From: the human T2T-CHM13v2.0 reference genome, Homo sapiens
NCBI RefSeq assembly: GCF_009914755.1
Contig: NC_060943.1
DNA: 64,000 bases
Strand: one strand, 5' to 3'
Shown: in pieces, positions 25,835 to 31,630 of the stretch
Layout of the letters: each line of letters begins with the position of its first letter
How positions within the stretch are numbered: position 1 is the stretch's first letter
Notes under the pieces: model-generated
What the model saw: only the letters and a program-made list of their open reading frames with translations
Databases searched by the model: none
Told to the model about the DNA's origin: nothing
Program-made: the position numbers and the translations under genes

Positions 25835-25930
25835 CTGGCCACTGGCCTCTTGTTAGCTCTCTGTCAGCCAACCAGGGCTCCTTCCCTTGCTCCAAGTAGG
25901 AGATCACATTTGGTTTAGAAATAGAATGCC
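25835..25930 (-). CDS. ZNF566: ZNF566 KRAB-B exon (96 nt; 99 nt with the alternative acceptor at 25933)
   Basis: Translates [32 protein letters not shown] (KP.VI..LEQG.EPW KRAB-B motif). Donor CAG|gtaagt; acceptor ttgtaagcag|. Confidence 0.95.
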
Positions 25931-26255
25931 CTGCTTACAAAAGAAGTAACAAAACAAATTTATCATGAGCATATCCTAGAATTCAAATCCAGTCCCTTCA
26001 TTATAAAGAAAGACATGGCATTATGAGAAGAGTCAAAGAGAGGTACAACGGACTTATGAAACATAACGGAAGATGTAAAACATCCCCAAAAACTCAATGC
26101 AGCTTCCTTTTTCTAACTCTACCATATTCAGAACATTCCTGTGGAACAGGATATCAAAATTCGACTGGTTTTTGAAAGCCAGGTGAGCATTTCACATTGG
26201 AGGAAGTAGGCCTTCCAAGGGCAGAATCTAAATTACTATGGACAGATGTCCTTAC

Positions 26256-26382
26256 CCATTGAAACCAGGTTGCTGTAATTCTCCAACATCACATCTCTGT
26301 ATAAATCTCTCTGATCATCATTCAGGCATTCCCACTCCTCCTGAGAGAAGTCTACGGACACATCACTGAACATCACTGACTC
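26256..26382 (-). CDS. ZNF566: ZNF566 KRAB-A exon (127 nt)
   Basis: [42 protein letters not shown]; canonical 127-nt KRAB-A exon length. Acceptor ttgttccag|; donor ATGG|gtaag. Confidence 0.96.
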
Positions 26383-29300
26383 CTGGAACAATAACCACGT
26401 ATATGACTTCATTAATTTTTTAAAAAGTACTTTTGTGAAGGAAAGAGAGAAGAAAAAGATTAAGGTAGAGGAAGTAAAATATAGTGAGCATATGAATGTC
26501 TGGGAAGCAGTGGAGGACTGTAAACAAATAAGCACAACTGAATCACTGGGTTTCCAGGTCATTCTGTTTCCTCCAAATGAAACTGCCTGAGTATGCTAGG
26601 ATACCTCCATTATCCAAACAAGGTTGGGAAGGTACAAAAATTCAGCTAAGAGGGCTTTTCCAATTAAATGAAATTGTATATGCAATGCCTCACACTATAC
26701 CTGTCATATAATAAATCAACGATACATGTGATCTTTCTCCCTCTCTTTTCCCAAATAGCTGAGAGTCAAATTTCAGAATAAGGGATAAAGACATTAAAAG
26801 CCGCCAGAGAGAAGAGCAGGTCATATAAAAGGCATCAAAAATTAGAGGGGCAATGGAATTCTCAAGAACACCTCTAAAAGCAAGAAACAATAAGAACGAT
26901 TCTTCAATATTCTGATGGAGAAAATAAACTCTGACCTAGACTTTCATAAACAAACTATCATTCTGTTTTGAGTGTTGAGAAAAGACATTTGTAGACATCC
27001 AAGGACTCAAGAAGAGTTTCTTCAGAAACTTCTAGAGGATGTGGTCCACAAAAACGAGGGAGTAAACAAAAAAAGAAGACAACATAGGATTCAGGAAGTA
27101 GGTAAAGTTTCAGGAAAGCTGTGACTGAGAGAGTAAACCAGACCAGATGGGAACAAGGAAACAGGAAATGGGGAATCAAGTCTCTATATCAAAAGGAACT
27201 GATGTGTCTGACCAGAGGGAAAACGTATTGATTGGCCTGTGGCAATGATGCTGGAGATTCTGGATATAAACACACAAATGACTAGGCAAATGAGGGGGGA
27301 AGCAATTAACCCCAGGAAAATGAAGGGTTGTATAGAACAAAGCCATGAGCTCGCTTGGCAGAGAATAATATTTGCAGCCGTAATAAGGTGTATACTATTG
27401 ATTTAACCAAAAATGGTGATATGGTAACAGTCAGGAAAAACGAAAGTGCAGTATGGGAATACAATGTTCCCTTTAACTTTGCAATCAGTCAAGAGATAAT
27501 GACTAAAGTGGGTTTATCGAAAAATGGTAGTAAACCAATTTTCAAGAGTTGAGGGCAGTGGCCTCTTGGAGTGGGTCTGGTAACGGGACAAAACCAGAAT
27601 TGAACTATTTCCCTTGTAGACATGTGTAAAATTACTTTTAAAAACTTTGTATCTTAGAAAATTAAATTTGCATATAATTTAAGACTCTGATCCATTCCTA
27701 TGCCAGACTATTATATAATAAGAAATATTCCTTGTTACAACAAATGCTATTCATATGTTTCTCACTGAATACTATTCTATTATAAGGCTATAAATGACAT
27801 CTATCCTTTTGCCTTTAGAAATTCAGGCTAGAGGTGATCTCTAAAGACCTCGCCAACATTGGCCCAATCTTATTTATAACCACCTACTGCCCAGCTGTAA
27901 ATTCCCCTTATAACTAAGCTACAGAAAACTGGTGAAGGATGATCCAGTTTCACCGTTGGTATTACTGACATCATTGCTTTTGTTTTTTAAACAGGATCTT
28001 CCTCTATCACCCAGGCCAAAGTGCAGTGGCATGATCACATCTCACTGCAGCCATGACTTCCTGGGCTCAAGTGATCCTCCCACCTCAGCCTCCCGAGTAG
28101 CTGGGACTACAGGCGTGCACCAACATGCCTGGCTAATTTTTGTATTTTTTGTAGAGATGGGGTTTGCCATGTTGCCCAGGCTAGTCACCTGGGTTCAAGC
28201 AAACCACCAGCCTCAACCTCCCAAAATGCTGGAATTACAGGTGTGAGTCACCACGTTTGGCCACTGACATCAATTTTTCATGGATGCTTAGTGAGGTGTG
28301 AGAGCTTTGTAACAACCACTAGTCACACTCTCAAACATAAAAGGCTCGTTAACCAGGAGACCTTGCCATGTACTAGGACTGAAATCAAACAAAACCACAG
28401 CATGTATTTTCTTATTGGAAAACCCAGGTCTACAGAGCTAATGAGGGCTTTTCCCTATAAGGTGCCCCTAATTACTTATTTTCATCCCATCAAATCACTG
28501 TCCAAGCAAATTAAATTCATATTAATTCAATGTGGGGAACACATTTCTGCCCTATCAGGATTTTTGGTAGAAATCTGAGATAGGAGATGCTGAAGGACTT
28601 GTAAACCAGCATGTAAACATTGTTTAAAAGCGGGGGGCGGCGGGGAACTGAAGAGGAGACTGGGGTTGTTTAGGAGGAAATGCATGTCCTTTTCCTGACA
28701 GGGGACCCTGGAAACCAGTGTAAAAAAAATTATTCCAAACCTGATCTGGGTCAGGTTTTTACATTACATAATTTTTACATTACATAATTCTTAAATCTCT
28801 TTATGGAAAGAAAGAAATAAGTATTCTTGATGAAACTGATAGGGGATTTTCTGATGGACATTAATCTAAATTAAAACTTCTTCAGAGAAATTTGTTATTC
28901 AACCACTTGGCTGACTAACAGTTAACAGTGAATTAATATAAATTTTTTTCTGGGCACAGTGGCTCATGCTTATAATCCCAGCTCTTTGGGAGGCTGAGGC
29001 GGGTGGATAACTTGAGGTCAGGAATTCGAGGCCAGCCTGGACAACATGGCAAAGACTCATCTCTACTAAAAATACAAAAATTAGCTGGGTGTGGTTGTGG
29101 GCGCCTGTAATCCCAGCTACTCAGGAGGCTGAAGTAGGAGAATCACTTGAACCCTGGAGGCAGAGGTTGCAGTAAGCCAAGATTGTGCCACTGTACTCCA
29201 GCCTAGAAGACAGAGCGAGACTCCATCTCGAAAAAAAAAAAAAAAGGGTAAATTTTCTAACAATGATTATGTAATCAATTCTTTTTTTTTCTATGAATTG

Positions 29301-29476
29301 GCCTGTTAGAGATCCTTTCCTTTACAGCAAAATTCTGACATTGCTCATAACCAAACTTTTTGAAAGGTGTTGTTTTTCTTTCTAACATCAAAAAGCATCA
29401 TCATGAGGAAAGCAAATGTTTACAGTTACTAGAAGTAAAAATCACTCTATCTGAGCAAAAGGAAACAGTATCTCAC

Positions 29477-29485
29477 CTGAGCCAT
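29477..29485 (-). CDS. ZNF566: ZNF566 start-codon segment (ATG GCT CAG = MAQ) of 68-nt exon 2 (29477-29544)
   Basis: Strong Kozak gccATGG; donor CAG|gtgag in phase 0 with KRAB-A; pyrimidine-rich acceptor ...cctctcccag| at 29545. Total CDS 9+127+96+1025=1257 nt = 418 aa + stop. Confidence 0.92.
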
Positions 29486-31630
29486 GGCTCTGATATTTGT
29501 AGAAAAGGACCTTCTCTTGGCTCTTCTTTTGGAGAAGGGTAGAGCTGGGAGAGGCAAAAGAAGATAGATAAGACCCCACTTTCCTCACAGCTCCTGGCCC
29601 AGAATGATCATTTTCCTTCTGTTCATGCTTCAGAAATGCTTGTGGGGTATCAGTGAGGAGAATGGGCAAATGTCTCTATCATCCCTAGCTTCAAAGATAC
29701 CAGGCTGTAACTGGAGCAGGATGGATTAGGGCAACTCAATATGGCTTGGAGAATATATGTTTATATACACACACATACATACATATAGATTTTTTTAACT
29801 CATATTATACACACTACTTATACACGTTGCTATTTTTACTTTACATATCTTGGAATGAAGTCCTAATTAGCACATATTGTGTTACATAACTGGTTTAATA
29901 GCTACATTGCAGTCCATTAAATGGATATAACTTAATTTTTTTTTTCTTTTCTTTTTGAGACAGAGTCTCACTCTGTCCCCCAGGCTGGAGTGCAGTGGTG
30001 CAATCTTGGCTCACTGCAACCTCCGCGTCCTGGGTTCAAGCGATTCTTCTGCCTCAGCCTCCCAAGTAGCTGGGACTACAGGCATGTGCCACCACGCCCG
30101 GCTAATTTTTTGTATTTTTAGTAGTGATGGGGTTTCACTCTGTTAGCCAGGATGGTCTCGATCTCCTGACCTCATGATCCGCCCGACTCCACCTCCCAAT
30201 GTGCTAAGATTACAGGTATGAGCCACCGCGCCTGGCCATAACTTTATTTATTTAACCAATCTGTGGCCAATCATCATTTAGGCTTTTTCTAGTTTTTCAC
30301 TGTAACAAACAATGCTGTAATAAATATCCTTGTGCATATGTCATTTTACCTGTATATGAGTTCTTCACAATTAATTCCTAAAAGTATAATTGCTCAGAGA
30401 TTATACACATTTTAAGTTTGGATATACCTGGGTCAAACCAGTTTTCTGTTTCTGTTTTTTTTTTTTTTTTTTTTTTTTTTTTTTTTTTTTTTGAGACGGA
30501 GTCTTGCTCTGTCGCCCAGGCTGGAGTGCAATGGCGCGATCTTGGCTCACTGCAAGCTCCGCCTCCCAGGTTCACGCCATTCTCCTGCCTCAGCCTCCTA
30601 AGTAGCTGGGACTACAGGCTCCCGCCACCACGCCCGCCTAATTTTTGTATTTTTAGTAGAGACGGGTTTCACCATGTTGGCCAGGCTGGTCTCAAAATCC
30701 TGACCTTCCAAAGTGCTGGGATTATAAGCGTGAGACACCACACCCAGCCTTGTGTGTATTCTTTATAAACATCTTCACTTTAAGATGTTTAAAGTGCCCA
30801 AAAGAATAAGTTATACTAAAATACTAAAGGAAGACTACATTGTTTAAGGGGAAGAACTGAATTAGTGATCAATGTTTAAATGTTTAAGAAAATTTTGGTG
30901 TTTTGCTTATTAGCTACAAGAACTTAATAAACTTAAAATTATACAAACTATAAAGAGCACTATTATTCTCTATGCACCAAGCTTCTTGATCATTAAACAA
31001 TTCATCAATTATTTCATATAAAACTGACCACCCAGAAAGTAGCACCATGTTATCAATTATCTAATGGCTTCCTCTACCCATAGGCACTCACTCACTGCAT
31101 TTCCCCAGATGAATACCAAAGGAATACAAGTGTCTCTTCTTTAAAACCTAAATGCACGCTGATATTATTATTATTACTACTACATATTAAGCTCTTAGTA
31201 TTCTTTTATCAACCAAATAGCCTATGATATATAATAGCCAGGCATTGTGCTAGATACTAAAGAGTCAAAAATAATCCAGAAAGATCTGGAAACAGAGTTC
31301 CTTCTTCTATATTCCTCATTTTAAGCCCTCCTTTCTGGTCTCTCCTCCTGGCCTTCCTCTGGTTAAAGGGATGTCTTCAAATGCTGTACCTTCCAAGCAG
31401 GATGGCATGAAACATTCCCACTTCAACAGCTCCATACCATGCTTGTTGCATTCTCAACACTCCTCATCTTTGCCCCAGAGGGCAGCCTCCCATGCTGAAT
31501 TCTTACATCAGGGGATCTGCTCCTCTCTTTTAAATTCAGCCCTCATTAATGTAAAAAAAAAAAAAAAGTCTCACGAAATAAGAAAGAAAACTTTCTCAAC
31601 TTGATGAGTAGCATCTAAGAAATACCTACT

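What the first reader, a model, noticed from the sequence alone, without database searches (positions are those of the whole stretch)
25835..29544. Exon 2-3-4 back-splice circle would be a stop-free endless KRAB ORF (candidate rolling-circle translated circRNA)
Seen: exons of 68+127+96 nt total 291 nt (294 with the NAGNAG acceptor), both multiples of 3. Joining the KRAB-B donor (leftover G) to the exon-2 acceptor reads the 59-nt 5' UTR as GCT CTA CCC TTC TCC AAA AGA AGA GCC AAG AGA AGG TCC TTT TCT ACA AAT ATC AGA GCC (ALPFSKRRAKRRSFSTNIRA) and returns in frame to the Kozak ATG with no stop. The repeat unit is 97/98 aa: complete KRAB A+B plus a basic NLS-like linker KRRAKRR, with no zinc fingers. 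Known: KRAB binds TRIM28/KAP1, and stop-free 3n circles can be translated by rolling circle. Inference: a multivalent poly-KRAB could titrate or cluster TRIM28. I recall a circZNF566 being reported but cannot verify its exons. Caveat: the chance of 3n length plus 20 open codons is roughly 1 in 8, so this is suggestive only.
Basis: partly seen in the sequence, partly recalled or inferred. Interest (0 to 1): 0.8.

Follow-up and report, generated by a model that had tools for sequence, protein, structure and literature searches.

The report
Ordinary ZNF566 KRAB exons; circle unproven
The three exons are the normal start-codon and KRAB-domain exons of ZNF566. Joined into a ring they would indeed read without a stop, but so would about three in ten similar genes on chromosome 19, and nothing found shows that such a ring is made.

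Summary
The arithmetic is right. Exons 2, 3 and 4 of ZNF566 (minus strand) are 68, 127 and 96 or 99 nt. The joined circle is 291 or 294 nt, has no stop in the ATG frame and 5-6 stops in the other two frames.

It is not distinctive. Of 64 chr19 KRAB-type zinc-finger genes with the same exon layout, 28 give a 3n circle, 35 have a stop-free UTR part in the ATG frame, and 19 (30%) have both, junction codon included. The UTR parts are equally stop-poor in all three frames (32, 26 and 31 of 59), so nothing marks the ATG frame as selected.

It is a 603-nt circle inside the last zinc-finger exon, window 2341-2943. My literature searches found no exon 2-3-4 circle. No circRNA database or sequencing reads could be queried.

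Stop-free circles that carry the host AUG are a described class: 8% of AUG circRNAs, with no evidence of translation.

Verdict: annotated, ordinary KRAB-ZNF exons, and the endless frame is a by-product of the family's gene architecture. Low interest.

The parts
29477..29544 (-). ZNF566 exon 2: 59 nt of 5' UTR plus ATG GCT CAG. It would supply the acceptor for the proposed back-splice.
   Evidence: Present in all 10 NM transcripts.
29483..29485 (-). Annotated start codon, in a GCCATGG context
29523..29528 (-). AAGAAG hexamer in the UTR, within the purine-rich tract that reads as KRRAKRR in the ATG frame. The same hexamer is called IRES-like in bioRxiv 10.1101/473207.
   Evidence: This is a low-information motif match only.
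26256..26382 (-). Exon 3, KRAB A box (127 nt)
   Evidence: Pfam PF01352, E 2.8e-25. PDB matches to the ZNF568 and ZNF93 KRAB domains, E about 3e-13.
25835..25933 (-). Exon 4, KRAB B region: 96 nt, or 99 nt through the tandem acceptor. It leaves one G at the donor, and that donor is the one proposed for the back-splice.
   Evidence: No Pfam match for this exon alone.
29924..30263 (-). Alu-type (SRP-like) repeat in intron 1, 380 nt upstream of the exon 2 acceptor
   Evidence: It is one arm of inverted pairs I7, I15 and I25.
23522..24167 (+). Alu-type repeats in intron 4, in the opposite orientation to the intron 1 copy and about 1.7 kb downstream of the exon 4 donor. They are permissive for intron pairing and not specific.
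   Evidence: A same-orientation copy at 24661-24968 lies between them and the exon.
2341..2943 (-). The published circZNF566 (hsa_circ_0109500/0141434). It uses the exon 5 acceptor and a GT donor inside the exon. It is 603 nt, and it is not part of the proposed circle.

Best explanation
The interval holds the ordinary, annotated 5' coding exons of the KRAB zinc-finger gene ZNF566: a short UTR/ATG exon, the 127-nt KRAB-A exon and the 96/99-nt KRAB-B exon. In the linear mRNA they encode the TRIM28-recruiting KRAB domain ahead of the zinc-finger exon.

The circular reading frame without a stop is a by-product of this family's architecture. KRAB-A plus KRAB-B contribute 3n+1 nt of open coding sequence. 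The ATG exon carries only about 20 UTR codons, in a pyrimidine-then-purine tract that is poor in stops in every frame. Part of that UTR is homologous to sequence that is coding in paralogs.

Shown here:
- the exon anatomy and the open frame;
- how common the property is in the family;
- the identity of the published circle.

Inferred: no dedicated exon 2-4 circle with a coding role needs to be invoked.
For: - Anatomy and frame.
- KRAB identity.
- Family rate: 28 of 64 circles are 3n, 35 of 64 are stop-free, and 19 of 64 are both, with 18 of 18 junction codons open plus ZNF566 itself.
- No frame preference: 32, 26 and 31 of 59 UTR parts are open in the ATG, -1 and -2 frames.
- In a 24-exon alignment the ATG exon is homologous across paralogs. 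ZNF527, ZNF570, ZNF471 and ZNF470 start upstream in the same frame and keep an internal ATG aligned to the ZNF566 start.
- The published circZNF566 maps to 2341-2943.
- No other ZNF566 circle appeared in the searched papers.
- Infinite frames occur in 8% of AUG circRNAs and of the control AUG exons from genes whose AUG exon is not known to circularise, and there is no translation evidence for AUG circRNAs.
Against: - The family has more open 3n circles than a naive model predicts: 19 seen, against 7.5 expected from mononucleotide shuffles times 1/3, or 11.6 given the observed lengths.
- 3n lengths are mildly over-represented: 28 of 64, binomial p 0.053, not corrected for paralogy.
- Open UTRs are somewhat commoner among 3n genes: 19 of 28 against 16 of 36, Fisher p 0.079.
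- The flanking introns are long (13.1 and 22.9 kb), 42-49% repeat, and hold 12 cross-intron inverted pairs among the 25 longest. Back-splicing is therefore physically plausible.
- The start context is strong, and an AAGAAG hexamer lies upstream of it.
- Rolling-circle translation of natural circles has been shown with reporters.
- I could not look at any circRNA database or reads.
Confidence: 0.85

Rival explanations
1. An exon 2-3-4 circle is made at a low level as one of the many AUG circRNAs, helped by inverted Alu-type repeats in introns 1 and 4. It stays untranslated, so its open frame has no consequence.
For: - Long, repeat-rich flanking introns with inverted pairs.
- AUG circRNAs are described as an abundant class (abstract and passages).
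- The gene is known to back-splice at the exon 5 acceptor.
Against: - No report of this junction in three searches.
- Competing within-intron inverted pairs are present: 11 of the 25 longest lie within one intron. A same-orientation Alu-type copy lies nearest the exon 4 donor.
- RefSeq has isoforms that skip exon 3, exon 4 or both, but none that skips exon 2. There is therefore no sign of an exon 2-containing lariat.
Confidence: 0.3
2. One reading: the circle exists and is translated from the normal AUG round and round into poly-KRAB with basic linkers, which titrates or clusters TRIM28.
For: - The frame is open and 3n.
- The KRAB-A box is canonical by Pfam and close to the ZNF93 and ZNF568 KRAB domains of solved structures.
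- Stop-free circles were translated into concatemers in reporter systems.
- KRAB-only linear proteins and isoforms are known and have been discussed as dominant-negative candidates.
Against: - There is no evidence for the circle or for any of its products.
- The property is shared by 19 of 64 relatives and is not frame-specific.
- AUG circRNAs showed no translation in ribosome profiling or reporter tests.
- Two of the three tested concatemer products rose on proteasome inhibition.
- The linker peptide is not conserved among paralogs.
Confidence: 0.03
3. The open frame upstream of the ATG is a relic of coding sequence. The ancestral ATG exon began translation further upstream, as several paralogs still do, and ZNF566 lost that start.
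For: In the 24-exon alignment ZNF527, ZNF570, ZNF875 and ZNF471 start 33 nt before the exon end and ZNF470 starts 60 nt before it. In ZNF527, ZNF570, ZNF471 and ZNF470 an internal in-frame ATG aligns with the ZNF566 start.
Against: - This covers only the 3' third of the UTR.
- The other two frames of these UTR parts are open about as often.
- The direction of change was not tested: there was no outgroup and no tree.
Confidence: 0.3

Closest known systems
AUG circRNAs with an infinite ORF (Stagsted et al. 2019, PMC6487579; passages read)
   Same: The proposed circle would begin at the acceptor of the AUG-containing second exon, carry the host start codon and N-terminal coding exons, and have no stop.
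   Different: Those circles are observed molecules; this one is not. That paper reports infinite frames in only 8% of AUG circRNAs and finds no evidence of translation.
Rolling-circle ORFs (rcORFs) of natural circRNAs: circPSAP, circPFAS and circABHD12 in bioRxiv 10.1101/473207, and circRtn4 in PMC6690939 (passages read)
   Same: A circle of 3n length with no stop in the host frame, predicted to give concatemers.
   Different: Those were shown with reporters and junction peptides. Nothing of the kind exists for ZNF566 exons 2-4.
Published circZNF566, hsa_circ_0109500/0141434 (PMC7293356; passages read)
   Same: It comes from the same host gene. It is also 3n (603 nt) and stop-free in the host frame, with an in-frame ATG.
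   Different: It lies wholly in the last zinc-finger exon (2341-2943), has no KRAB, and was studied as a cytoplasmic miRNA sponge.
KRAB-only (KRAB-O) proteins and zinc-finger-less KRAB isoforms such as the short ZNF268 isoform (PMC3579818 and bioRxiv 10.64898/2026.08.06.743218; passages read)
   Same: KRAB without a DNA-binding array, discussed as able to engage the co-repressor without binding DNA.
   Different: Those are single-copy products of linear mRNAs, not concatemers from a circle.

Membership tests
KRAB zinc-finger gene, N-terminal exon set | KRAB A box encoded by a 127-nt exon that follows a short ATG exon | tested here: met
   Exon 3 is 127 nt and matches PF01352 at E 2.8e-25. 165 chr19 'select' transcripts have a 127-nt exon directly after the ATG exon.
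KRAB zinc-finger gene, N-terminal exon set | KRAB-B exon and a large terminal zinc-finger exon | tested here: met
   RefSeq layout. A 96-nt third exon is the commonest among the 165 (58 cases). The translated start of exon 5 shows C2H2 and linker motifs. Exon 4 alone has no Pfam hit.
Exonic circRNA | An observed back-splice junction (donor of a downstream exon joined to the acceptor of an upstream exon), RNase R resistant | not testable with these tools
   No reads or circRNA database were available. Papers searched name only the 603-nt exon 5 circle. Supplements, which may list more junctions, were closed and not requested.
Infinite-ORF (rcORF) AUG circRNA | Contains the annotated AUG exon, and that exon has an upstream acceptor | tested here: met
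Infinite-ORF (rcORF) AUG circRNA | Length divisible by 3 and no stop in the AUG frame, junction codon included | tested here: met
   291 and 294 nt, 0 stops
Infinite-ORF (rcORF) AUG circRNA | Evidence of translation: phased footprints over the junction, junction peptides or concatemer bands | not testable with these tools
   None available. The class as a whole showed no translation in PMC6487579.
Published circZNF566 (hsa_circ_0109500) | Same back-splice junction | tested here: not met
   The junction halves taken from the paper's siRNA targets map to 2341-2355 and 2930-2943, giving a 603-nt circle as published.
Alu-driven circRNA locus | Inverted repeats in the two flanking introns that can pair across the circularised exons | tested here: inconclusive
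   12 of the 25 longest inverted pairs span introns 1 and 4, but 11 lie within one intron and would compete. Orientations come from the SRP-like matches. This is generic for a 43% repeat locus.

The most novel reading that the evidence does not exclude
The KRAB zinc-finger family as a whole is predisposed to encode endless KRAB frames. 19 of 64 same-layout chr19 genes are 3n and stop-free if their ATG, KRAB-A and KRAB-B exons circularise, which is about 2.5 times a naive expectation. If such AUG circles exist and are translated, even rarely, poly-KRAB products from many loci could together buffer or cluster TRIM28. ZNF566 would be one instance.
Probability: 0.03. Interest if true: 0.6.

Novelty: already known. 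Interest (0 to 1): 0.15.

Why it matters
If real, a circle-encoded multivalent KRAB would be a new way to modulate the TRIM28 co-repressor, and a rare endogenous case of rolling-circle translation with a clear biochemical target.

As it stands, the result is a caution. For KRAB-ZNF genes an open 3n circle over the first coding exons is the default for about three genes in ten, so it cannot by itself nominate a candidate.

The analysis also settles which part of ZNF566 the published circZNF566 comes from. That validated circle is itself stop-free in the host frame, which makes it a more concrete object for a translation test than the hypothetical one.

Tried and rejected
- **Is ZNF566 unusual in its family?** From the chr19 annotation I took every 'select' transcript with a non-first ATG exon, then a 127-nt exon, then an internal third exon. 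That gave 64 of 1377. I fetched their ATG exons and, for the 18 other positives, their third exons. ZNF566 was 1 of 19, so the idea of a gene-specific signal was dropped. The other 63 were taken as KRAB genes on the 127-nt exon and their names only; I did not run Pfam on them. Genes on other chromosomes were not examined, because transcript tables were held for chr19 only.
- **Is the ATG frame favoured?** I compared the three frames and found no preference. The mild excess of 3n lengths (p 0.053) and its link to openness (p 0.079) are uncorrected for paralogy. Six of the 28 3n genes are the ZNF221/223/224/225/230/284 group, which share an 83-nt exon. I did not pursue this.
- **Is the remembered circZNF566 this circle?** No.
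- **The preprint 10.64898/2026.09.17.752169.** It says its circZNF566 uses a splice site inside exon 5 but does not give the exon make-up in its text. The figure is not held and supplements are closed. A circle running from exon 2 to that internal donor is therefore not excluded; it would be 894 nt and also stop-free.
- **Literature on circle-encoded KRAB peptides.** One search returned 3 transposable-element reviews and one search returned 142 papers, of which 25 were listed. I saw listings only, and none was on this topic by title.
- **Other features in 25700-29700.** There are 3 mechanical ORFs of 90 aa or more: one is exon 3 read into its intron, one overlaps an Alu-type repeat and the third adjoins it. 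Rfam gave only Alu-derived SRP and miRNA-like matches.
- **Not attempted.**
  - Ortholog UTR conservation: no primate or mammal DNA is within reach of these tools.
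Full report
**What is there**

- On the minus strand the interval holds three annotated ZNF566 exons.
  - Exon 2 (29477-29544, 68 nt) follows an AG and precedes a GT. 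It has 59 nt of 5' UTR, then the ATG in a GCCATGG context and two more codons.
  - Exon 3 (26256-26382, 127 nt) is the KRAB A box: Pfam PF01352 at E 2.8e-25. Its nearest solved relatives are the KRAB domains of ZNF568 and ZNF93, at E about 3e-13.
  - Exon 4 (25835-25930, 96 nt) can start 3 nt earlier at a tandem AAG/CAG acceptor, giving 99 nt.
- RefSeq lists 11 ZNF566 mRNAs.
  - All 10 NM transcripts use exon 2.
  - Five carry exons 3 and 4 together.
  - Two skip exon 3, two skip exon 4 and one skips both.
  - Two use the 99-nt form of exon 4.
  - None skips exon 2.

**The observation**

- Joining exons 2, 3 and 4 by coordinates gives 291 or 294 nt.
- The frame of the ATG has no stop, while the other two frames have 6 and 5.
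- For this gene alone, 0.37 of 20,000 shuffles of the UTR stay open.

**Is it more than the family background?**

- From the chr19 transcript table I took every 'select' mRNA with a non-first ATG exon, a 127-nt exon next, and an internal third exon. This gave 64 genes, all named ZNF, ZFP or ZIM.
- I fetched their ATG exons. All 64 have an AG acceptor and an ATG at the annotated place.
- The counts were as follows:
  - 28 of 64 circles are 3n;
  - 35 of 64 UTR parts have no stop in the ATG frame;
  - 19 of 64 have both.
- For the other 18 positives I fetched the third exon and checked the junction codon. All 18 stay open.
- For UTR parts of 40 nt or more, the figure is 14 of 55.
- ZNF566 is thus one of about three in ten.
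- The openness is not tied to the ATG frame. Among the 59 exons with 30 nt or more of UTR, 32, 26 and 31 are open in the three frames.
- All three figures lie above what mononucleotide shuffles give: 22.6 of 64 expected against 35 seen. I attribute this to the pyrimidine-then-purine layout of these exons, which is an inference.
- The weak excess of 3n lengths (p 0.053) and its weak link with openness (p 0.079) are not corrected for shared ancestry. Six of the 28 are one recent gene group.

**Homology of the ATG exon**

- An alignment of 24 of the 64 exons, chosen by eye, shows a shared motif block. The start codon sits at different places along it.
- ZNF527, ZNF570, ZNF471 and ZNF470 begin translation upstream and keep an internal in-frame ATG aligned to the ZNF566 start.
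- The last third of the ZNF566 UTR therefore aligns with sequence that is coding in paralogs.
- The purine-rich tract that reads KRRAKRR in ZNF566 reads as acidic or mixed peptides in relatives. The basic linker is thus a frame accident of a purine run, not a conserved peptide.

**The published circle**

- PMC7293356 (passages read) defines circZNF566 as hsa_circ_0109500/0141434: 603 nt, hg19 chr19:36940300-36940903.
- The two sides of its junction, taken from the paper's siRNA targets, map once each to 2341-2355 and 2930-2943 on the minus strand.
- The circle is therefore window 2341-2943. It is formed by the exon 5 acceptor and a GT donor inside the zinc-finger exon, and it contains no KRAB.
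- A 2026 preprint (passages read) likewise places a circZNF566 splice site inside exon 5, but its text does not give the exon make-up.
- Searches for other ZNF566 circles returned 30, 6 and 2 papers. None names an exon 2-4 junction in what I saw, which was listings plus the passages above.
- Supplementary tables, which may list more junctions, were closed.

**Could the circle form?**

- Introns 1 and 4 are 13.1 and 22.9 kb long and 42% and 49% repeat.
- Of the 25 longest inverted pairs among 196, the split is as follows:
  - 12 bridge introns 1 and 4;
  - 11 lie within one intron;
  - 2 involve intron 2.
- An Alu-type copy lies 380 nt upstream of exon 2. The nearest opposite-orientation copies in intron 4 start about 1.7 kb from the exon 4 donor, behind a same-orientation copy.
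- This is permissive but generic.

**Would it be translated?**

- Natural stop-free circles gave concatemers in reporter systems, and AAGAAG, present in exon 2, is one of the reported IRES-like hexamers.
- Against this:
  - The study of AUG circRNAs found infinite frames in 8% of them. The same fraction was found in control AUG exons, taken from genes whose AUG exon is not known to circularise.
  - That study found no conservation of the post-junction frame and no translation signal.
  - Two of the three tested concatemer products rose on proteasome inhibition.
- That one TRIM28 dimer binds one KRAB, so that a poly-KRAB could cluster dimers, is my recollection and comes from no call.

**Verdict**

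- The exons are known and ordinary.
- The endless frame is real on paper but is a common by-product of KRAB-ZNF gene structure.
- The recalled circRNA is a different molecule, and no evidence for the proposed circle was found.
- Its existence remains untested here.

Noticed in passing
window 2341-2943 (-): The validated circZNF566 is itself 603 nt (3n), with 0 stops in the host coding frame and an in-frame ATG. The other frames have 5 and 25 stops. The paper reports it as mainly cytoplasmic, and its main text has no occurrence of ORF, translat-, peptide or IRES.
   Followed up: partly
window 2331-2345 (-): The donor of the published circle is a GT followed by GAGAAGCC, lying in the codons of a zinc-finger linker. 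Linker codons that look like 5' splice sites could recur in many zinc-finger exons; I did not count them.
   Followed up: no
L001-L082 (chr19 KRAB-ZNF exons): 19 of 64 same-layout genes give a 3n, stop-free circle over the ATG, KRAB-A and KRAB-B exons: ZNF699, 560, 565, 566, 875, 527, 607, 45, 221, 223, 224, 227, 233, 473, 841, 582, 667, 470 and 544. In three of them (ZNF699, ZNF221, ZNF227) the UTR part is only 2-5 nt.
   Followed up: yes
L001-L064: The UTR parts of KRAB-ZNF ATG exons are stop-poor in all three frames: 32, 26 and 31 of 59 are open. In the ATG frame 35 of 64 are open, against 22.6 expected from mononucleotide shuffles.
   Followed up: partly
L018, L020, L058, L059 against window 29477-29544: ZNF527, ZNF570, ZNF471 and ZNF470 start translation 33-60 nt before the exon end and keep an in-frame ATG aligned with the ZNF566 start. 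The start codon has therefore shifted within a homologous exon.
   Followed up: partly
window 29955-30102 (-) and 20964-21112 (+): Two Alu-type pieces reach Rfam's gathering score for Metazoa_SRP (71.1 and 70 bits, cut-off 70). Both lie inside interspersed ~300-nt inverted repeats: 29955-30102 in a masked repeat, 20964-21112 within arm I1. I read them as Alu-derived matches, not SRP RNA genes.
   Followed up: no
L005 and L065: GC rather than GT follows the ZNF846 ATG exon and the ZNF699 KRAB-B exon, which points to GC-AG introns.
   Followed up: no
window 26256-29544 (-), and 2341-29544 (-): Two other hypothetical circles are also 3n and stop-free: exons 2+3 (195 nt), and exon 2 through to the known internal donor of exon 5 (894 nt).
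   Followed up: partly
window 25835-29544 (-): RefSeq carries KRAB-less and KRAB-A-only ZNF566 isoforms made by skipping exon 3, exon 4 or both. The three that lack exon 3 are annotated to start at a downstream ATG in exon 5, with the CDS ending at 2863.
   Followed up: no
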